From Lama glama (Eukaryota), in NCBI GenBank assembly GCA_028534125.1, contig CM052825.1:372001-436000 (forward strand): a stretch of DNA of 64,000 bases, in the 5' to 3' direction. Each line of letters opens with the position of its first letter. Within the stretch, counting starts at the first letter, position 1. The notes beneath the pieces are model-generated. The model did no database searches and was not told the DNA's origin. It saw only the letters and a program-made list of their open reading frames with translations. The position numbers were made by a program, and so were the translations under genes. This document shows, piece after piece, positions 1,061 through 63,910 of the stretch.

Positions 1061-2311
1061 TGGCAACGCAGTGACCGTCACCGAGAAAATAAGGATTCAT
1101 GCCACCCCCTTACAGTTAAGTAAAAGAAAATGCTCGGTTTAGAACCAAGACTGGAACCTAGGCTTCCTGGTCGTCTGCAGACGAGTCACCCCACCTCTTC
1201 CAGACATCAGCCCTCACCTGTCAGAGGCAGGTCACCAAGGCTTCTCCAGGCAAGTATGACCAGTCCACCTCCCTACACCTCCACCCTTGTCCCCGCCTCT
1301 CCCCCAAGCTCCAGTCCCACAGCCTCTCTGACAGCTCAAGCACGTCCAAAGCATCACTTTGACCTTTTCCGGTCCAACCGTTCTCTTCCTACTGTCCCCT
1401 TCTTGGCAGGTGGCACCCCCTTCAGACCAAACGCCAGGAGTCATGCCCCACACCTCTCTCCTCCCCCTACCTCCAGTCCACCAGCAAGACCTGGAACAGC
1501 CCCACCAAAGCCAGCAGCCCCCAGCTCCTCTCTCCCCATCTCCGCTCCCCAGTGACAGTAGCACCCTGCCCCTGCCAAGCGTAACAACCCAAAGTGTCTG
1601 CAGCCACTGCACACGTCCCCTGGGGGCAGGAGACCCCTAGATGAGACCGTCTGCTCTAGTCTCACCCTGTGGCCTCAGCTCAGGTCTGGCCGGGACCCCG
1701 CCTCTGGCCTCCTAAGGAGCTCCCTGTCTCGGTCCTGCCAATAGGTCACCCCCTGAAAGACAGGGCACCAGGCTGGGGTCACTGGTGAACAAACCAGGTT
1801 AAGTAAGGATGCACGACACCCCCTCTTCAAACGTGAGGGAACAATCCCATCCCCCGCCCCCGGCCTCGGTGCGGGACTGGGGACTGGAGCTCCTCTCCTC
1901 ACGGGGACCTCAAAAGTAACCAGAGAGACACGGATTAAGGCCACGTGGCCAGGTCCACCTATTCAAAAACAGCTTTTAAAATTAAAACAGCCAAAGTGGG
2001 CTCAGGTGGGTCACTAGCAGCCCCAGTCCCTGCTGGAGGGGCTGCAAACTGATGCTCCGCTCTGGGGAGCCCCCATCAGTCCATCTCCGAAAAGCTGCAC
2101 TAAACCAACAATACTACACATGGAAAAAAATCTCAGTACAGAAACGTTCGTGTGGCATTATTTTTAACGTTAAAAAAAAAGCTGAAAATAACTCAATCAT
2201 CTAATCGTGAGGGAAATGTGGAGAAAACATGGCTGTATCTTCTTAACACAAGTGAGTGAAGAATAGACTGTAAGTACGCATGTCTGTGACATGGCTACAG
2301 CTATGCTCGAA

Positions 2312-2743
2312 ATCCACACAGTGGAGGGACCACAGATCCCACGTCCACACAGCGGGGGGGCCGCAGATCCCACGTCCATACAGGGGAGGGGCCACAGATC
2401 CCACGTCCACACAGCGGGGGTGCTGCAGGGCCCACGTCCACAGAGCAGGGGGGCCGCAGAGCCCACGTCCACACAGGGGAGGGGCTGCGGATCCCACGAC
2501 CACACAGGGAAGGGGCCACAGAGCCCACGTCCACACAGCAGGGGGGGCGCAGATCCCACGTCCATACAGGGGAGGGGCCACAGATCCCACATCCACACAG
2601 CGGGGGGGGCCGCAGATCCCACGTCCACAGAGCAGGGGGGCCGCAGAGCCCACGTCCACACAGGGGAGGGGCTGCGGATCCCACGACCACACAGGGAAGG
2701 GGCCACAGAGCCCACGTCCACACAGGGGGGAGGGACCACAGAC
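2312..2743. repeat. 31-bp GC-rich minisatellite, ~14 copies, with a 6-unit higher-order duplication
   Basis: Unit ~acgtccacacagSgggRggggccRcagaKccc recurs at 2341, 2372, 2403, 2434, 2465, 2496, 2527, 2558, 2589, 2621, 2652, 2683 and 2714. Confidence 0.97.
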
Positions 2744-3651
2744 AACGTTTACCTCTTCTTTCCACTCCTGAACTTCTCAGATTTTCTTTAAAGGCATGTA
2801 TTGCTATAAAATGTTTTTCATGGATTGTTTTGAAGGGAAGAAATAAATCCATTCCTTCGGGTTGGGCTATGTGTCCACAAGAGTTCCCGTCAGAAGTAAG
2901 ACACTGCTGGGAGGCGGGGCACGGGCTGAGAGGTGCTTAAACACAGACCCGGCCCCGGGGCTCCCATTCAGTCCCCATGGCAGACGGACAGGGACAGTTA
3001 TGCTGTGATACGAGGGCCAGGAGGAGGAACCTCAGGTGACCCCAGAGAGTGTTCTGGGCCGAGAGCCCAAGGGAGGGAGGGGCAGCAGGGCAGGCTGACA
3101 GGGGCTCCTGTCCCAACCTGCCGCTTCCTGGACCATCCGCTTGCTTCCCACGATGAGCCAGCAAGGGGGTGACAGGTGTCATTCGGGAGGAGTGAGCTCG
3201 GGGACCCTCTCCTCAGTAGAGAGGGGCAGATCAGGCATGTGTCCCACCCCAACCCGTGCACACACACGTTTGCGGGGCAGGCCAGCCTCTGCTGAGTCCC
3301 AGAGACGCAGACAATGTGCAAGCTGACCCCAGACATCCCACATCACACTCTGCCAGAGCTGTTTTGCCCCAGTGCCGAGGACATCTACGAGACCCAGTGC
3401 CACTTCCGTCCCGAGCTGAAAACCATCTGTGAGCCCCACAGGTTCTAATCACAGTCAGCCTTTCCCAAACATCTGCACCGCCTTCCGCCAGCCCCCTGAA
3501 GGCCCTGGACCACCTGGGAGGAGAAGGGGTTCTGTGGCTGGGAGGACAGAGCCCCCAGCTCCGGCAAACCGCTTTGGAAGGACACTACCACAGGCACTCC
3601 AGGCCCCGTGAGGACGGTGGCGGAAAGGGTTGGCGGGTGCCCTGCACTGAC

Positions 3652-3828
3652 CTTCTCCAGCTTCTCGAAGTGTTCCCGGAGGAACCTCATGGGGCGGTCG
3701 GGCTTGGAGACGCAGAGGTGCACGATGCAGTCCCTGAGCACCTGCTGGACGCTGTGCTTCTGGACGTAGAGCTCGCAGCCTCGCAGAGCCTCGTCCTCCT
3801 CCAGCGGGTAAGGCGACGGCGAGGCCAT
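3652..3828 (-). CDS. PRKAR1B: cAMP-dependent protein kinase type I-beta regulatory subunit, first coding exon (dimerization/docking domain); gene continues beyond the left edge
   Basis: Translation [59 protein letters not shown] matches the RI-beta N-terminus. 177 nt followed by donor AAG|GTCAGT at 3651. Acceptor tctcctccccag|G places the exon start at 3845. Context ACCATGG. Confidence 0.97.
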
Positions 3829-4299
3829 GGTCAGCGGGACTGCACCTGGGGAGGAGAACAGGGATCAGGCTCGTGGTTCGGTGAACACCTGTCCTACACG
3901 CATCCTAAGGTTTACCCGTGCAGGCTGATCCAAGGACTGACGCGATGTGCTCACATGGCCCGGGCGTTTTACCCTGCACTTGTCAGCGAGATGACCTGTT
4001 AACACAACCACCGCGATGCCTAACAGCTAACAGACCCCCCGCGGACGGGGGTGGACCAGGCAGGTTTTGCACGCTGTTGAGAAGCAGCAGTGCAGGGCGG
4101 GGGGGCTCCTGAGGGTCCAGCAGGCGGTTGTGCGGCCTCACTTGCATCCATACCCTCTTTCAGGAGAACAGTGGGGGGGGGCTGTACCTCCCACCCCAGC
4201 CGAACGCCATGGGAGATGGGGTTGGGGTGCCCTTGCAAGCTCCGCAGGAAAGGGGAGGCAGGAAAACAAACGGAGCGAGGCTGAGGGGCCCCAGGAGGA

Positions 4300-4780
4300 C
4301 AAGCCCGGGGACAAAGGCAGGCCCGCGTTCCCCGCCCGCGCTCCGGCCAGGTCGCAATCACAGCCCGGAACCGGCGCGGAACCCGGCCCGCCCGGCGGCG
4401 CACGCGGCCGCGGGGACCCCAGCCCTGGCCTCCGCGTCCCCGGCCTCCGCGCCCCGCACCACGGCGGCGCCTCGGGCTAGGGTCCAGCCGAGGGGCCAGG
4501 GGCTCCCCAAGGGCCCACATTCCCCGAGGCCTCCCGGTGCAGACCCAGCCCCGGACAGGCATGCGGAGGGGGCCGCCGCAGACCCCACCCCAGCCCAGCC
4601 CCGCGTACCTGGATGCGCGGTGCCGGAGACCGGAGGCGGTGCGCAGGGACGCAGAGACGCGGGACGGCGAGCAAGCGGGTCCCCGCACTGCAGCGGCGCC
4701 GCCCTCCGCCCGCCCCGCGCCGCCCCCGCCCACCGGCGCCCCCCGCCCCCTCCCCGCCCCGACACCCGGGCTCCCCTCTG
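4300..4780 (-). promoter_or_regulatory. PRKAR1B: CpG island / proximal promoter of PRKAR1B
   Basis: Very dense CpG with multiple GC boxes (ccgccc) at 4695-4760, 0.5-0.9 kb upstream of the first coding exon. Confidence 0.85.
4609..4700 (-). other. PRKAR1B: Probable non-coding first exon of PRKAR1B (proximal isoform)
   Basis: Minus-strand donor CCAG|GTACGC at 4609/4608, directly downstream of a GC-box cluster. The 5' end is uncertain. Confidence 0.55.
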
Positions 4781-7324
4781 GTCTCCCCAGGACCCACCTG
4801 TCCCCCTCGCCCCAGACTCCCCTCACCCGCTGCGTACCCCTGTTCCCCTCCCCCTCCCCTGCTCCTGACTGCCCCCCACCCTTTCCCCACCCACCAATCC
4901 TCCACCCTGGGCTTTGGGGCTGACAGGCCTCACATTGGACACACAGATCCCTGTGTAGCTTGGTCAGGACACCACTGCCACCCCCAAACTCCCTCCACTG
5001 GGGACCCTGCGATTGTCCCCCCACCCCCGTTGGTTGCAGCCTGTGGGGCTTCAGGGTGATGGCCAGCCCCCTCCACACCTGGGATGTCCCATGTACACAC
5101 GTGCAAGGCACCAGCCTGTCCTCCGGGGTCTGTCTTCAGCTCAGGGCCTGCAGGGGTGGTAGGCGGGCCCAGGCCACCCTCGGGAGAGGTTAGCTGATTT
5201 CCTTTTCTTGGTTTAAGGGCACCAGCTTCACCCGGATGCCCCGGGGGAAATCGCAGGGTCATCCTAAATTCTTGCCACCACCCATGGGCATCCAGGAGGT
5301 CACTGAGGCCAGCAGAGGCCCTTGGTGATGTCCTAACCCACAAGGCCGGGCCTGCAGCAAAGGGAAGCCCTCATTCACTGTTGCCTTCATCCTGCCGGGT
5401 GGAGGAGGAAACTGCATCTCAGGCAGCTGGGGGTCCCCACCCCTTCCCTAGTGGTCTGAATCCCAGGAGAGGGGGAGGGACCCAGGCCTTGAAGGGGAAG
5501 GCCTCTGCTCTGCTGTCCAGGCTCACCTGTCCCTGCTCCCACACCCACACAGGCACACCACCGTGGGGGCAGCCTTGCCAGGCAAGCTCCCCAGCAGGGC
5601 TGATGCGGGCCAGCTCCCTCCTGGCAGCTGAAGGGAAAGTCACAGACGCACGCAGGTGGTCACACTCAGAGCCCCTTTCTGCTCCCCATCCCTCTCCCTC
5701 AACGTGTGCCTGGCCTCGCCCACACCTCAGGTACACTGGCACCTGCCCCAGTCACTGAAAGAGTCACTTTGGGGAACTGAAGTCCAGTCTCAACAGAATC
5801 GAAACTTCAACCCACAAGCAATTGAAACCTTTGGCTATTGCTCAGCTCTGCCCCCTGGGCCTCCCAGCTGTGTGAACTAGGAAATGTCCGTGTTGGCTAC
5901 GCCGTGGTTTCTGTGACTGAGAAGTATCCATGTGGACCCACCCTGAAGTACATGACCCCCCGTCCCCCCAGACAGCCCCCAAAAATGATCTGTGGTGGTC
6001 GCAGGGACATCCCTCCCGGGGCAGGGTCAGAAACCGTGTGGACCACGGGTGGGGCACAGCTAGGCTGAGGTCACCACCCCACTGGACAGAGACAAATCTG
6101 GTCTCACAAGGTGTCCAAACAGCCACATCTTCCTAGGAAGATGATCACATCATTCGAAAGTCCCAGCAAGTCGCGCTGGTCTGCGTGCCCCCCCACCACA
6201 GGGAGGGGGCCCATCCCCACGCTACTACTCCCCTGAAGCCCGAGTGATCAAGTCTTGAAAAAAACAACTTCAAAGCCACATTATTTTCCAACCATCGCCC
6301 GCCCCAAATTCCTGGCTCTGCCAACACCAGCTCACCTGCAAAGACAGCCTGGACGTGACTTCCGTGGGGAACCCTCCCTGGGGCTCCCTCACCTGCCGAT
6401 GAGGCTGGGCCTCTGCAGGTGCCGCCCCGCCCGGGGCTCCCTGCACACTGCGGCCCTGTCCCAAGTGCTCCTGCGTGACCTGCAGAGGCTGTTTGCTTTG
6501 CGGGGAGCCCCAGGCAGGCACAGGCAGTGTCTCTGTTGTCCACCCTGCAGGGCAAGGAGACAGACCAACATCTGCTGGCCGTCCACCTCCTGGCCTTGCA
6601 GGCCGACCCCCGGTGTGAGCGCGGGGCTGGGGCCACCTGCAGAGGGGCCAGAGGGTAAGTGCTGGATACTCAGGGAGGACTCACTCTGGGAGGACTCTGA
6701 GCCAGGAACCCTACCTGGAGGGGCCACCGAACCTCACATCAGGGTGAACTAACTCTCAGCCCCAGCGTACAGATGAGGATCTGGGGGACAGGGGGCTGGG
6801 AGCCGAGCTTGCAGTGCACTAATCACTGTTCCTCCAGCCACGCCCACTCCTCGGGAAGTCAGCTAATTCCTCCCCGGGATGGAAGACAGAGACCCAGGGG
6901 GAGGGAGAGTGGGAGCTGGGACGAGGAAACGTCGGTCCCGAGAGACAGAGGAGGCACAGCAGCAGCGCCCTCTACTCTGCAGCTTTTAGGCCTGGATGTG
7001 AGCGCTCACACAGATTTTGCCACACAAGTCGATAAATCTGACTTAAGCGTCGCTTCCGGTGGGGTTTTGTGGGAGTGGTGGGCAGCCCCCAGGCAGAGGA
7101 CCCCAGAGGAGGCTCGCAGAGGAGGCCCCAGCCCTGGCCTGGAGGCCACCGCCCAGCGGACACGCCTGGACTCCTGACCCACACTCAGATAACTGGTGAG
7201 TGGAAGTCCCCGAGCTTGCAGTGCATCGTCTGCAGAGACTGGTAACTGCTGCTCAGGGCTCGAGGGAGACAGGCCCACCTCACGCCTGCGCTGGTGCCCA
7301 GTGTCAGGAGATAGCTCCAGGAAC

Positions 7325-15543: not shown

Positions 15544-16162
15544 ATGGCGGCGCTGGTGGCGGCGGAGGCCGCGGCGCCCCCGGGCCCGGCGGAGGCGGCC
15601 GAGACGGCCGAGGCGGCGGAGCTGAGCCGCGCCCTGAGCCGCCTGCTGCCCGGGCTGGAGGCCGACAGCAAGCTGGGCCGGCGGCGCGCGCTGGAGGCGC
15701 TAGAGCGCGCGCTGGAGGCGGCACGGCCCGAGGCGCCCGACGCCGACCCCGCCGCCGCGGCCGCCGCCTTCCAGGGCCCCTGGGCGCGCCTGCTGCTGCC
15801 GCGCCTGCTGCGCTGTCTGGCCGACCCGGCCGAGGGCTGCCGCGCACTGGCCGTGCACCTGCTGGGCCTGGGCCTGCGGCGCGCCGCGCGGCCCCGCGAC
15901 GCCCTCCCGCGCCTGCTGCCCGCACTCGCCGCGCGCCTGGCCGGCCCCGAGCCCGCGCGCCGCCCGCCGCCCGAGGCCTGCGAGGAGCTGCGCCTGGCGC
16001 TCGTGGAGCTGCTCGGCCTGGCCGTGCGCCTGGGCGGCTCCGCGCTCGCGCCCCACCTGGACGACGCGGTGCGCGTGCTGCGCTGCACGCTGCTCGACCC
16101 CTTCGCCGCCGTGCGCCGCGAGAGCTGCGACTGCGCCGCCGCCCTGGCGCGCGCCACGCCAG
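15544..16162 (+). CDS. DNAAF5: Dynein axonemal assembly factor 5 (HEATR2), exon 1 (619 nt)
   Basis: [43 protein letters not shown]...[24 protein letters not shown]. Kozak AAGATGG; donor CAG|GTGCCT. Confidence 0.97.
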
Positions 16163-42910: not shown

Positions 42911-44699
42911 TTCCTGAATTTAAGAAGCTCAAAGTTATTTTCATAAAGACAATTTCTCTATTTGCCCCTACCCATGCTGTGGTTCAAAAGCAAGTTTTAC
43001 TTCCTTTTAAAATCTCCTTTCCGTACCGTAAGTGAAAATACAAGGTCCTAGGGTAGTTGGCTGGTGGAAGATGAAACACCCCCTTTCAACAGCCCAGGAC
43101 GGCCCTAAACGTGCTGGTAAGGAATGGTCTCTAAATTAAGGCAACAACGGTGAGACAACAAGGAGCACTGCACTGTGTGCAGAACGCACCATGTATCAAA
43201 GGAGGAGAGAGGGAGCGGCCCACTTGCTTTTATATGCATGAGATATTTCTAGGTTACAAAAGCAACTGGACAGAGTGGTGGCCTCTGGAGGGGGGACCTG
43301 TGTGACTGAGGGGCCAGAGTGGGAAGTCAGGCTGTGTCTTTTGGTACCTCTGTGCACATACCACCTGGTCAGTAACACAACTCAGCTGAGACTAATTCTC
43401 AGGTCAGGGGCCCGACTGACACAGGGTGATGGTCTTGGCGCCTAAGTGAGCACACCTGTTTCTTCTATACAACCGGAGCCCCATTCCAGGGAGGGATGCT
43501 CAGGGTGTCAGAGCAGAAGTTTTACCGACAGGTCGTCTTGTTGAGAAGTGACAATGCAGAGACTCGTATCCAAGTGTTCACAGCAGCTTTATTCAGTGCT
43601 AAACTGGACATAACCCACATGTCCATCAGCAATTATGAATGGACAAACCTGCAGTACACACACGACGGCACCGCACTGCAGCGGGAGCGGCTCTGACACC
43701 AGGCTGAATGAAGGAGGCCAGACGTCAGAGGGCGTACCATACGAGTCCTTCTACGTGCATTTCTAGAACAGTCAAAGCTGTTCCACGGTTCTTTTTGCAT
43801 CACTGAATCAGTCACAGATATTTAGGGACCTGCTGTGAATTTTGTGTGAACTTTTCCATAATTCAAAGTATCAAAACATCAAAAACAATCACTGATGGAG
43901 TTTGGAAGGCAAAAGCTAAGACTCCTCCAGGCAAGAGTAGGGAGAGTGGTGTCGCCTCACTGAAGGCTGGCCTCTCGACTATCAGTCGCCTTACGACTAA
44001 ACTGGAAGATTAAATTTTCTCCAAAGACAAATTTTTCTTCCTGATATGCCCCCACATTCCAGGATTCTCTAAACAGCCAGCGACAGACCCCCAGGCATTG
44101 CTTATGTGATGTCAGACAAGAGAAGAAATGACTGGATGCGACTCAGGGTGGTGGGGGGTGGAGGGGCTTTGGGTTTGTTTTCTATTTTCCAGACTTGAGT
44201 CATTCCTGATTTTAGACGCATTTTTAGAGGTCACAGGCAGTGCTGTACAGGCAACAATTAATCAGTATCTCAGAAGGCAGGCTGTGGCCTCCACTCACAA
44301 GTTACCCACTCAGCCGCTCTCCTTTGACCTAAGCACGTCCTTGACCTTGACCCCCCCCCCGGGGGGTGAAAGCCTCTTTCCTGTAAGCAAGTGGTGGCTT
44401 CAGGAGCTGGCTGGGACACTGAGGCCTGGAACCCGTCCCAAAGGCAAGACACCTTCTCGTCTGTCCTCAGGCGTCTGCGCAGGGTTTTCTTAGCCTTGGA
44501 AAGCGCAATTCGAAGAGGCAAAGTAGCGCCCGTTGTGGGCTGGCAACAGACGGTAACCGAAGACGAAGATCCTACGCAGGAGCCAAGGCGCTCTCCTCCT
44601 GGCCCAGCTGCTGGCTCTTTTACCCTCCAGGACTCCACGTTACTCCCTCCCTACGTCCACTGCTCAGGAGTGAGTGGTGGTCTGGGCAGAGGCTGAGAG

Positions 44700-46210
44700 C
44701 GAAGGGGTGAACACGGCGATGCAGACGGGGCGGGGGCGGCGTGGGGGGCGGACAGCGGGCGGGCACCGGCGCCGCCCCCGGCTCCCGGGGTCTCCGGCAC
44801 TTACGCCGCCGGCACTTACGCCGCCGGCACGTCCATCCTCAGGACCAGTCGCGCTGGGTCTGATACAGCACGCACGTCGGCGCCGCCGCTCGGCGCCACC
44901 CGCCGGAACGACCCTCCTGCGAGGGCTTCGCTCCCCCTGCGACGCGGCCTCGGCCGCGTCGGCAGCACCACGGCGCGTGGACGCGCTCCGGCCTGAACCG
45001 CCCGCGTTACTAACGCGCTGGGACCAGGCGCCGCCTCACGCACACACCGCTCCGAGCGCCTGACGGCACCGACGGCACAAGCACGGAGCGGGGTCCGCGT
45101 CTCCCCGCGGCGCGGCGCCGGGGCTCCTCAGACGCCGGCCGCCCGCCCCGCAGGCGGCTGCTCCGTGCGCTCCCGCCCGCACGGCCGGCGCGCGGCCTCC
45201 CCGGACCGCAGACGCCGCCTGCCGCCGCGCGAACAGGAAGCGCGGCTCTCGGCGTCCGCGGGCCCGGCGGGCGCCCTCGTCGGGGACCGCTCCTGGCGCC
45301 GCCTCCCCGCCTCCGAGCCGCCGGCTGCCTCCCACGGTCCGCCCGGCCGCGAAAGCGAGGCGCGCACACGCCCGAGCCGGCCCGGCCAGCCGCCCTCCCA
45401 GCCGCCCGGGCGGACATGCGCAGAAGCGCCCGCGGCGGTGCGCGCCCGGCGGGCCTGACTGCTGGGCTCGGGTCACGTGGCCGCGGCCCGCGGCTGCCCC
45501 TCCCGCCGCGACGCGAGCCGCCGCGCTTCCGGCCGCGAGTGGCCTGTCCGCGCACGACAGTGTCGCTGTTCTCCTGGTGAGAAGCGGAGCCAGAGCCGTC
45601 GTCACGTGGGCCCGCGGGCCACCCAGTCTTTTCAGCTGAGTCGCTGACACCTGTTCTGCTTAAGCCCGTTGAGCGGCGCCTTCTCTTACTTGCAAAACAG
45701 ATTGCGTCCGAATGGAAACAGGGACAAGTACCGACCCGGCCGACCGGGGCGGAACCCGCGTGTCATAGCTGAGCGTGTGTCTGAGCAGGGAGGCCTCCGG
45801 GCCGCGGGGGCCAGCGCCCCTTCCCCTGGCTGGGGCTCCCCTCCCTCCGTCCTTCTCTCTCCGGAGACGGGAGGGACCGGTGCCCGCGAGTGGGGAGGGA
45901 GGGGAGCGGTGCTCATAAAATGCAGCCCCTGCCGCTGGCGACGAGTCCCCCCTCCTCCGGTGACGCCCTGAGGCCCGCCGTGCACCCCGGCACCGGCTCT
46001 GCACCCCAGCACCGCCGGGGAGTCCTGGCACAAAGAGGCCACCCTGCGTGCTGTAAGCAGCATCCTTCCTGCAGGGAGGAGTGGGGAACGGGGAGAACCT
46101 TTCTCCGAGACCAGGGGTGGGAGAGGAGGGCGGGAGTGCCCCTCCTCGCCGCGCCCTCCTTCCCTTCCCTCTTGCCTGCTGTAGAAAGTGCCCCAGGCCA
46201 GCCAATGCGT
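44700..46210. promoter_or_regulatory. Orphan CpG island with promoter-type motifs; no recognisable gene attached
   Basis: ~1.5 kb of very dense CpG. GTCACGTGG at 45472 and 45601, CTTCCGG at 45526, CATGCGCA at ~45415, GC boxes, and CCAAT at 46202. Confidence 0.8.
44794..44830. repeat. 15-bp exact tandem duplication containing a minus-strand GTAAGT donor motif
   Basis: ccggcacttacgccg ccggcacttacgccg ccggcac. Confidence 0.92.
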
Positions 46211-46392
46211 GTAAACGGGCGTCTTATAGAAGTGGCCGGTTCCAGGGCTAGGGCAGGGAGAAAGAGGAGATGAGCCTGGAATGTTCTGTGCTGCTAGACA
46301 GTAAGGAATTGCTCCAAAAAAGAACGAGGCGTGTAGACGGGACTCGGGAGCCAACCTGAAGGAGCTCCTAATGGCCAAAGCTGAAACACTAT

Positions 46393-47025
46393 TGATGCAG
46401 GAAAAACAGACGTGGGGCATGAGGAGGGCCGTGTCCCAGGCTTCAGTTGAGCCCCTGGGACGTGCCCCGCCAAGTGTGGGTCCTTGGCTTCGCCCAGGAA
46501 AGAATTCAAGAGCAAGCCACTGCTGAGTAAAGGTAGATTTATTTAGAAAGATATGTTGAAGCGCAAGAGAAAGGCCACCCATGAGGTATAGGGGTTGGGT
46601 GCTAAGATCAGAGTAAAAGTAGGTACACACTCCACAGACAGAGTGCGGGCCATCTCCAAAGGGCGAGAGAGGGTGGCCTCTGGGAGGCATGCTGTTGCCA
46701 GTCTTTATGGGCTCAGTGGCTTCATATGCTAATAAATGAAAGGACCAGTCTAGCCTGGGGAAGGAGCTGGGATTCCCAGGAAGTTGGCCTTTTCCCACTC
46801 TGACCTTCTGTGTCTAGCCTTGGGACTGCCATGGCGCCTGCAGGCATGTTATTTACCATGCTGATATATTACAGTGGGCGTATAATGGAGCTCAAGATCT
46901 GCTAGAAGTTAAATCTCTCATCATCTTGAGCCTCAAGGCCTACTGGGGGTTGAATTTTTCACCATTTTGATGTTAATTGCTGCATCATTCCTTGAATGGC
47001 TGTGCCTTGTCCCCTTCCTGTCTCA
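46393..47025 (-). mobile_element. ERV1-class solo LTR (~633 bp), MER41/LTR8-like U5
   Basis: Minus strand begins TGAGACAGG and ends CCTGCATCA. TATA-like CATAAAG at 46709-46703; AATAAA at 46543-46538; U5 motif TTGAATTCTTTCCTGGGCGAAGCCAAGGACCC. Near-matching 4-bp flanks ctat/gtat. Confidence 0.8.
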
Positions 47026-47057
47026 GTATGAGCAGCAAAATTAATAATAATACTATA

Positions 47058-47212
47058 GAGGGGAGGGTGTAGCTTGGTGGTGGAGTGTGTGCTTGGCATG
47101 CACCCAAGCTCCTATGTTCAATCCCCAGTACCACCGTTAAATAAATACATGAATAAACCTAATTACCTTCCCCCCAAAATTAAAAATAAATAAACAAATT
47201 TTACAAAATAAA
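47058..47212 (+). mobile_element. tRNA-derived SINE (camelid Vic-1-like)
   Basis: ggggagggtgtagcttggtggtggag...gttcaatccccagtacc with an A-rich tail. TSD aatactat at 47049 and 47213. Confidence 0.85.
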
Positions 47213-53689: not shown

Positions 53690-53880
53690 GACAAGGTACT
53701 ACTGCGGAGCACAGGGAACTATATTCAGTTTCTTGAAATAACATGTAATGGAAAAGACTGTGAGAAGAAAAAAATATATAGTATGTAAACGCATAACTGA
53801 ATTGCTTTGCTGTACACCTGAAACACATTGTAAATCAACTACACTTCAATTAAGAAAAAATAAGAATTAGAAATAAAAGG
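53690..53880 (+). mobile_element. Artiodactyl-type L1 3' end
   Basis: agcacagggaactatattcag...ataactgaattgctttgctgtacacctgaaacacattgtaaatcaactacacttcaat followed by an A-rich tail. Confidence 0.85.
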
Positions 53881-62719: not shown

Positions 62720-63910
62720 AGGAGCCTGCGGGCCAGGAAGGCGCAGGTGTAACCGACAGGCTCCGGGGCGGCCGCAGGACCGGCGACAGCGGACGCGGGG
62801 GGCGCCCGGGCCTGCTCTGCCAGCGCGGGAGGGGCGCACCTGCGGCCCAGCGCGCACACCTGGGACGTGGGCGGCGCTCGGACCGCACAGGTACGGGGGT
62901 AAGGTGGGAGCGGACAGGGGCGGTGCAGGGACGGTGGAGACCGGGAGGTTGGCCACGAGGCCGGACCGGCGCGGGGTGGCCTGGCTGCTGCCGGCGAGTC
63001 GTGGGGGGGGTCTTTCTCTAGACGAGGACCCTCGGCGAGACGCGAGTCCCCTCCGCCCCAGGCCTTCCTTCCCGCCCTCCTGCCCCGCCCCCTCCCGCCG
63101 CGCACCGCCTCGGAGTCCCGCCCACTTCTCCCGCCCCGCGGCTCGGCTTCAGTTCGCGATTGGCTGGGCCCCTACGTAGGCCGCCTTCGCATTGGCCGAG
63201 GAGTTTCAAGTGGCGCGCTCAGAATTGGTGGACGTCCGCGTTGCTCCCGCCCCCGGCCCCAGACGCGGCGCACGATTGGCTGGCGGAGGCACGGTTTCTC
63301 GGGCCTGGGCGGCGCGGACGAGGCCTGGGGCAGCGGTGGCGGCGGCGGCGGCGGCGGCGCGAGGCAGGTGAGCTCCTGCCGCGGGTCGGGGCGAGGGTCG
63401 CGGTGAGGCGGGGCCGGGGCCTGGGCGACCCTCACAGCCGGCGGGGCAGGGACCGGCCGAGCCGCGGGCTCCTCCCGGGCCGCCAACGGTCGCGGCGGCT
63501 CCTCGGCCCCCGGCCCCCCGCCCCCGCTCCCCCTCCTCAGCCCGGCGTCCCCGCTCCGGCGCCGGCGGGCCCTCCCCCCCAGCCCCCCCCACCCCTCCCC
63601 ACCCCTCTTCAGCGCCCGAAGCCCCCGGCGCGGCCCCCCGCCCCCGGCCGCACGGCCCCAGGACGGCGCTGTCCCGCCCGCGAGGGCGCGGCTCGCGTGC
63701 CCGGGGTCGCGGGCGGCGGTGGGGGTCGCGGGCTGGGCCCGCAGACGTCACGGTGGCGGTGCGCGCCCCTCCGACCCCGCCGTCCTCGCGAGTGGAGGCC
63801 GCCGACGCCGCGGCCGGGCCTGCCGCCCCGAGCCCTCGCGGGCTCCCGGCGCAGCCTGTCCCCTCGCCCCGCGTCCGAGCTCCGAGGCGGGCGCGGGCCT
63901 GGTCGTTGGC
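62720..63910 (+). promoter_or_regulatory. SUN1: CpG-island promoter, probably SUN1
   Basis: Dense CpG, GC boxes and four ATTGG (63159, 63191, 63224, 63275). The gene identity rests only on PRKAR1B-DNAAF5-SUN1 synteny; no coding sequence is in the window. Confidence 0.7.
63285..63367 (+). other. SUN1: Non-coding first exon, probably SUN1
   Basis: Contains a (GGC)n run and no ATG, and ends at a strong donor CAG|GTGAGC (63367/63368). The TSS is approximate. Confidence 0.6.

What the first reader, a model, noticed from the sequence alone, without database searches (positions are those of the whole stretch)
44700..46210. Orphan CpG-island promoter between DNAAF5 and SUN1: candidate unannotated bidirectional transcription unit
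Seen: a 1.5-kb island as CpG-dense as the three gene promoters, 4 kb past the DNAAF5 polyA site and 17 kb from the next promoter. It has two GTCACGTGG E-boxes (45472, 45601) flanking an ETS CTTCCGG (45526), an NRF1-like CATGCGCA, GC boxes and a CCAAT. Donors point outward on both strands: plus CTG|GTGAGA at 45576/45577 and minus GC|GTAAGT at ~44.8 kb. No ORF resembles a protein I know. Established: GTCACGTG is bound by USF and MiT/TFE factors, and CpG retention implies germline hypomethylation or strong gBGC. Inference: the promoter of an undescribed lncRNA pair, a far-upstream SUN1 promoter, or the surviving promoter of a lost gene. The minus transcript would run antisense into the DNAAF5 3' end.
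Basis: partly seen in the sequence, partly recalled or inferred. Interest (0 to 1): 0.7.

Follow-up and report, generated by a model that had tools for sequence, protein, structure and literature searches.

The report
Lone CpG-island promoter upstream of SUN1
Between the genes DNAAF5 and SUN1 of an alpaca-like genome lies a CG-rich patch with paired housekeeping-factor motifs and no sign of methylation-driven mutation, so it is likely a real promoter that would make non-coding RNA, one of the thousands of such 'orphan' islands in mammals and an ordinary feature.

Summary
The island is real: 44,580-46,060, 75% G+C, CpG o/e 1.01, as dense as the known promoters, single-copy. The two GTCACGTG boxes beat chance (2 vs 0.04); ETS, CCAAT and the donors do not, and the two minus GTAAGT sites are one 15-bp tandem repeat. 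An ORF from an unnamed relative covers 820 bp of the island. It shows four frame-breaking indels (non-coding) and only 4 of 23 changes at CpG (no methylation-type decay; the SUN1 coding control does show it). GC skew, the leftward CpG spread and poly(A)-signal density weakly favour the minus strand as the main direction. Mouse CAP-seq shows no island at the matching place (gene assignment recalled). No RNA reads could be laid, so no transcript is shown. Best reading: an ordinary orphan CpG-island promoter of non-coding RNA, likely running towards the DNAAF5 3' end (0.45). A distal SUN1 promoter, as recalled for human, is the main rival (0.28). Interest is low.

The parts
44580..46060 (.). CpG island, single copy, non-coding, no excess of CpG transitions against a relative
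   Evidence: composition, bounds; 1 match each in the own genome; relative
45472..45480 (+). E-box GTCACGTGG (USF/MiT-TFE type, factor name recalled)
   Evidence: the codons over it are unchanged in P0121 at protein level
45601..45609 (+). second E-box GTCACGTGG, 120 bases after the first
45526..45532 (-). ETS-like CCGGAAG, at chance frequency
45415..45422 (-). partial NRF1-like TGCGCATG; it also holds the ATG at 45416
   Evidence: P 0.03 uncorrected; no full consensus site
45574..45582 (+). donor-like CTG|GTGAGA (score 4.7); the T of GT is C in the relative
44794..44830 (-). 15-bp x 2.5 tandem repeat with two weak donor-like GGC|GTAAGT sites (exon would end at 44820 or 44805)
44800..45420 (-). 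left arm, G-rich on the minus strand (skew -0.156 on plus), candidate first exon of a leftward transcript
   Evidence: transcript inferred
46393..47025 (-). high-copy LTR-like repeat (TG...CA) about 330 bases right of the island; orientation towards the island read from its poly(A) signal and recalled LTR layout
   Evidence: (39 of 40 scored matches are other copies, 84-87%)
46731..47212 (+). six A(A/T)TAAA poly(A)-signal hexamers on the plus strand, 1.2-1.7 kb right of the motif cluster

Best explanation
A single-copy, non-coding CpG island with paired E-boxes and extra GC boxes that shows no methylation-type CpG decay and likely works as a TATA-less housekeeping-type promoter, likely sending its main non-coding RNA leftwards towards the DNAAF5 3' end. 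Shown: composition, motifs, single copy, presence in a relative, frame-breaking indels, substitution spectrum. Inferred from general knowledge of CpG-island promoters: USF/Sp/NRF1-type factors open the 45,400-45,620 core, unmethylated CpG draws H3K4me3, and polymerase II starts in both directions. The leftward RNA would cross the G-rich, CpG-dense arm and could splice at 44820/44805. The rightward RNA would mostly end at the poly(A)-signal cluster at 46.7-47.2 kb unless spliced.
For: CpG density equals that of the neighbouring gene promoters, with E-box and GC-box excess over shuffles. Against the relative's ORF P0121, 4 of 23 residue changes in 273 codons fit a CpG transition. 22-29% are expected without CpG hypermutability, and a 5-fold CpG rate is rejected at P 0.0004 or less. 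The control, SUN1 coding sequence against camel, gives 12 of 29 where 14-19% is expected (P 0.0002-0.004). Four indels of 23, 34, 1 and 1 bases in 820 bp, 0 of 92 Pfam hits and no Rfam family in the island argue non-coding. Direction: left arm skew -0.156 (P 0.0006), right arm neutral; CpG per 250 bases 47, 51, 43, 22 leftwards against 26, 22, 11, 9 rightwards; poly(A) hexamers within 3 kb 2 leftwards, 7 rightwards. In PMC2944787 (section 7) H3K4me3 rises with CpG density, and 42-60% of human orphan islands show promoter evidence.
Against: No transcript, cap, chromatin or methylation data were obtained. The direction clues are weak. At the known promoters skew followed the sense direction only on the PRKAR1B side, not for DNAAF5, SUN1 or the next island, and the rightward hexamers lie in or beside repeats and A-rich DNA. 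The left donors score only 0.6. The direct island-versus-control contrast is not significant (Fisher P 0.077). Divergence from the relative (about 4%, my estimate) shows no constraint beyond CpG retention. The relative is one ORF of unknown species. Mouse shows no island at the matching place.
Confidence: 0.45

Rival explanations
1. Distal alternative promoter of SUN1: a short non-coding first exon in the island splices, directly or through small exons, to the SUN1 coding exon about 29.5 kb away, as the distal first exon of human SUN1 does. It can coexist with the best explanation.
For: Same strand as SUN1, 17.8 kb from its proximal first-exon donor. Human SUN1 is recalled, not verified here, to have a start about 16 kb upstream of its main one. 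PMC4161305 (Fig. S1 legend) says the 23 SUN1 exons used are exons 4-26 of ENST00000456758, so three exons lie in front. The plus donor scores above 12 of 16 best GT sites near SUN1 exon-match ends. PMC5378174 (abstract, section 5) describes distal islands as alternative promoters at about 10 kb on average.
Against: The donor's GT reads GC in the relative. None of the N-terminal extensions among the 120 SUN1 homologues listed (of 2574 found) maps to the island. That test is weak here, because an in-frame stop lies six codons before the SUN1 ATG and the island ATG would be out of frame. Seven poly(A) hexamers follow within 3 kb. The proximal SUN1 promoter is itself an intact island, unlike the silenced-proximal cases of PMC5378174. 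Orthology to the human site was not tested.
Confidence: 0.28
2. Enhancer-type orphan island: open and bound by the same factors, making only short unstable RNAs in both directions and acting on SUN1 or DNAAF5 by looping.
For: No donor above chance and poly(A) hexamers on both sides within 2 kb; no constraint beyond CpG retention; the class exists (PMC4989897, abstract).
Against: Size, CpG density (about 14 per 100 bases) and paired E-boxes match strong promoters rather than the CpG-poorer orphans of PMC2944787 (section 7).
Confidence: 0.17
3. Surviving or moved promoter of a lost gene, retrocopy or transposon.
For: Housekeeping-type motif set with no known gene; no matching island in mouse; an earlier AI note reports a hAT fossil in this spacer in another genome (unchecked).
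Against: No paralogue in the own genome (1 match in each), no long likeness to neighbouring promoters, 0 of 92 ORFs with a Pfam hit, no protein relative except the relative's own spurious ORF. Short decayed exons would escape these tests.
Confidence: 0.05
4. Inactive by-product of GC-biased gene conversion in a GC-rich region near the contig (likely chromosome) end.
For: The whole window is GC- and CpG-rich and lies 0.4 Mb from the start of a 33-Mb contig.
Against: Sharp edges, o/e 1.0 against 0.2-0.6 in the flanks, paired E-boxes and no CpG-transition excess. The changes could not be polarised, so a contribution of gBGC is not excluded.
Confidence: 0.05

Closest known systems
Orphan CpG islands with promoter character (Illingworth et al. 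2010, PMC2944787; abstract, sections 7 and 30, rows of Dataset S2 seen)
   Same: Intergenic, CpG-dense, away from the known promoters, with signs of long-term lack of germline methylation.
   Different: Defined there by CAP-seq and chromatin data, which are missing here; many are conserved in position between human and mouse, whereas the mouse list has no island at the matching place.
Distal CpG islands as alternative promoters (Sarda et al. 2017, PMC5378174; abstract and section 5 seen)
   Same: Island several kb upstream of a gene on the same strand with a donor-like site.
   Different: There the proximal promoter is methylated; here SUN1's proximal promoter is a dense island, and no splicing to SUN1 is shown.
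Human SUN1 distal first exon(s) (position recalled; three upstream exons of ENST00000456758 from a figure legend of PMC4161305)
   Same: Similar distance (16-18 kb) upstream of the main SUN1 start.
   Different: Orthology untested; recalled distance from the DNAAF5 end is about 30 kb in human against 4-5 kb here; the candidate donor is not conserved in the relative.
Enhancer-type orphan islands, eCGIs (Bae et al. 2016, PMC4989897; abstract seen)
   Same: Non-promoter island between genes.
   Different: Enhancer marks and loops untested; motif set and density look promoter-like.

Membership tests
CpG island (sequence definition) | length over 500 bp, G+C 55% or more, CpG o/e 0.65 or more (thresholds recalled) | tested here: met
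   about 1.5 kb, G+C 0.749, o/e 1.01
Orphan CpG island | unmethylated in the germ line | tested here: met
   indirect: 4 of 23 changes fit a CpG transition, 5-fold CpG rate rejected; control 12 of 29; no bisulfite data
Orphan CpG island | no annotated transcription start in it | not testable with these tools
   no annotation of this genome held; no listed SUN1 protein extension maps to it; a non-coding first exon would not show
Orphan CpG island | H3K4me3, polymerase II or CAGE signal | not testable with these tools
   no chromatin data; no RNA reads laid
Orphan CpG island | conserved position in other mammals | tested here: inconclusive
   present in one relative at camel-like distance; absent from the mouse CAP-seq list between the islands assigned by recall and spacing to Dnaaf5 and Sun1; human list not held
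Distal alternative promoter of SUN1 | first exon spliced to SUN1 exon 2 | not testable with these tools
   no reads laid; no protein for the plus-strand frame among 109 candidates
Distal alternative promoter of SUN1 | conserved plus-strand donor at 45576 | tested here: not met
   GT reads GC in the one relative; donors right of 45,644 are not covered by that ORF
Bidirectional gene-pair promoter | stable spliced transcripts on both strands | tested here: inconclusive
   donor-like sites on both strands but at chance density; asymmetry favours the minus strand
Protein-coding first exon or gene remnant | frame kept between relatives, family match | tested here: not met
   4 of 4 indels break the frame; 0 of 92 ORFs hit Pfam
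Transposon-derived promoter | island itself is a repeat copy | tested here: not met
   1 match in the own genome in each (very old repeats could be missed); the LTR-like repeat starts outside it at 46,393

The most novel reading that the evidence does not exclude
A promoter kept in camelids but missing in mouse that drives a spliced RNA antisense through the 3' end of the dynein-assembly gene DNAAF5, possibly on to PRKAR1B (same strand, first coding exon at 3,828, 41 kb away) as a far-upstream start, and so tunes DNAAF5 output in testis or ciliated cells by convergent transcription.
Probability: 0.08. Interest if true: 0.5.

Novelty: new member of a known kind. Interest (0 to 1): 0.2.

Why it matters
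Mammalian genomes hold over 10,000 orphan islands (PMC2944787, abstract), so one more is ordinary. It would matter modestly if it gave SUN1 (needed for meiotic telomere attachment; recalled, and the title of a reference seen) a second, lineage-variable promoter, or an antisense RNA on DNAAF5; both genes were named in a pig semen GWAS (PMC10969825, search listing only). It is also a small worked case of reading germline methylation from a relative's spurious ORF.

Tried and rejected
RNA evidence: no reads or contigs were laid, so transcription is untested. One search listed 24 runs. 14 RNA or possibly-RNA runs in 8 studies hold 15-17% of the 222 sampled words of 44,400-46,600, 4 runs of unknown kind hold 78-88%, and 6 are unindexed raw-read runs. 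SUN1 N-terminal extensions: 120 of 2574 homologues were listed and checked; 92 start at the usual Met, and the 8 other N-terminal forms gave no meaningful match to the island. Plus-strand frame 45,299-45,577: none of 109 candidates scored. P0121 against 1.84 billion representatives: itself and one repeat protein with no match in the region. Rfam on 40,000-64,000: two tRNA-like SINEs and one chance hit, none in the island. Duplication of the DNAAF5/PRKAR1B promoter: only 24-34-base matches, E 0.004. Literature: 10 searches found no paper on this island or on a SUN1 distal promoter. Two human probes are labelled SUN1 TSS1500 in PMC6360775 (passages), without coordinates. Supplements of PMC11300786 and PMC9640561 had no SUN1 rows, and PMC12983797 gave only a probe at chr7:884,056. 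Not seen: the human Dataset S1 of PMC2944787, 12 of 23 supplementary files of PMC5378174, and any supplement of PMC6360775; these could settle the human side. PMC11330011 and PMC11978583 (passages) added nothing on the island. Earlier findings: nothing for look-alike stretches or the first word search. gBGC direction: changes cannot be polarised with one relative.

Full report
Setting. The window is G000:C10:372,001-436,000. A SUN1 exon just beyond it is 100% identical to Vicugna pacos SUN1 and 90-92% to camel SUN1 over 49 residues, so the genome is alpaca or a close relative. The SUN1 coding start lies at extended position 75,118 with its acceptor at 75,097/75,098, and the proximal first-exon donor at 63,367. 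An ORF starting at 15,544 (plus) and one at 3,828 (minus) are recognised from recall as DNAAF5 and PRKAR1B. A further island at 105.5-107 kb is taken, from recalled gene order, as the GET4 promoter.

Observation. The island is as described. It has G+C 0.749, 212 CpG and o/e 1.01 in 44,700-46,210, against 211 and 190 CpG in equal windows on the two gene promoters, with sharp edges. It is single-copy in three searches of the own genome. All motifs are at the stated places. Of 13 patterns tested against 1000 shuffles, GTCACGTG (2 vs 0.04) and GC boxes (15 vs 7.2) stand out and the partial NRF1 site is borderline. ETS, CCAAT and G|GTRAG are at chance. The two minus GTAAGT sites belong to one 15-bp tandem repeat. 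With a donor matrix recalled from the literature, two sites in 44,400-46,400 score 4 or more (plus 45576, 4.7; minus 45690, 4.2), where about three are expected from the flanking rate of 0.78 per kb per strand. The repeat donors score 0.6.

A relative. A search with the 250-residue minus-strand frame found 1 protein among 7977 scored candidates, P0121, known only from Logan contigs. It follows the window from about 45,640 to 44,822 in five blocks, with four indels of 23, 34, 1 and 1 bases between them. All four break the frame, so neither sequence codes; this agrees with 0 of 92 ORFs hitting Pfam in the whole spacer and no Rfam family in the island. In 273 aligned codons there are 23 residue changes, each one base away; I estimate about 4% DNA divergence, a camel-like distance, but the species is unknown. 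Only 4 of 23 fit a CpG transition. 22-29% are expected with no CpG hypermutability, 42-51% at 3-fold (P 0.013 or less) and 53-63% at 5-fold (P 0.0004 or less). The same test on SUN1 coding exons against two camel proteins gives 12 of 29 where 14-19% is expected (the two give the same count and are not independent), so the test does see methylation where it is expected. The direct contrast of 4/23 with 12/29 has Fisher P 0.077, because the island offers many more CpGs by chance. I read the island as unmethylated in the germ line of both lineages (inference). The codons over both E-boxes and the ETS site are unchanged. Residue 23 (Thr to Ala) has one single-base solution, which puts C at plus-strand 45578, the T of the GT donor. 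P0121 ends next to the left donor repeat, which fits but does not prove a stop from the same GTAAG.

Direction. The left arm is C-rich on the plus strand (skew -0.156, P 0.0006) and the right arm is neutral. CpG density extends further left, and poly(A) hexamers within 3 kb number 2 leftwards and 7 rightwards. These favour a main minus-strand transcript, as on the PRKAR1B side of the bidirectional promoter. Skew did not mark the sense direction at DNAAF5, SUN1 or the next island, so this is weak. An LTR-like repeat at 46,393-47,025, with at least 39 other copies at 84-87%, points towards the island (layout recalled); the island itself is not part of it.

Other mammals. The mouse CAP-seq table of PMC2944787 (Dataset S2) lists consecutive chr5 islands at 139,625,378, 139,676,009 and 139,727,662, with none between. 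I assign them from recall to Prkar1b/Dnaaf5, Sun1 and Get4. The middle one sits at 0.495 of the interval, like the proximal SUN1 island here (0.525) and unlike the island in question (0.33). So mouse seems to lack it. For human I recall a SUN1 start about 16 kb upstream of the main one. The only support obtained is a figure legend showing three exons in front of the usual coding exons in ENST00000456758 (PMC4161305); the human island table was not held. No N-terminal extension among 120 listed SUN1 homologues maps to the island, but an in-frame stop six codons before the SUN1 ATG makes that test weak for camelids. Ten literature searches found nothing on this island.

Mechanism. Shown: a dense, single-copy, non-coding island with paired E-boxes, kept free of CpG decay over camelid divergence. 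Inferred from established CpG-island biology (PMC2944787, section 7, for the CpG-H3K4me3 link and the 42-60% of orphans with promoter evidence; factor identities recalled): USF-type, Sp and NRF1-type factors open the core, polymerase starts both ways, the leftward RNA is likely the more stable and runs towards the DNAAF5 3' end 4 kb away, and the rightward RNA likely ends early unless spliced on to SUN1. No RNA reads were laid, so every statement on transcripts is inference. Odds: non-coding promoter, mainly leftward 0.45; distal SUN1 promoter 0.28; enhancer-type 0.17; lost-gene remnant 0.05; inert gBGC product 0.05.

Verdict. A real regulatory island, a new member of a large known class, of low interest (0.2). 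Earlier AI notes on this genome describe several similar orphan islands (unchecked), which fits the view that the kind is common.

Noticed in passing
window 46393-47025: Solo LTR-like repeat of about 630 bases, thousands of candidates genome-wide, others 84-87% identical, oriented towards the island.
   Followed up: partly
L003:1098-1120 (extended 75,098-75,120): The SUN1 coding exon has an in-frame TGA six codons before the ATG and an out-of-frame ATG at its second base, where whale proteins read through the same stretch as an N-terminal extension.
   Followed up: partly
window 63367 to extended 75097: SUN1 intron 1 is 11.7 kb and holds a long L1-like stretch near its start (repeat class recalled).
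   Followed up: no
window 47057, 57693, 58410: tRNA-derived SINE copies; two score as tRNA in Rfam, the first seen by eye.
   Followed up: no
window 4000-5000: A smaller CpG-rich patch just upstream of the first PRKAR1B coding exon, matching in order a mouse island 20 kb left of the Dnaaf5 island; likely an alternative PRKAR1B promoter.
   Followed up: no
window 2200-2850: Degenerate tandem repeat in a PRKAR1B intron, seen as repetitive reading frames.
   Followed up: no
window 53690-53880: High-copy short repeat, 82-88% to many other copies.
   Followed up: no
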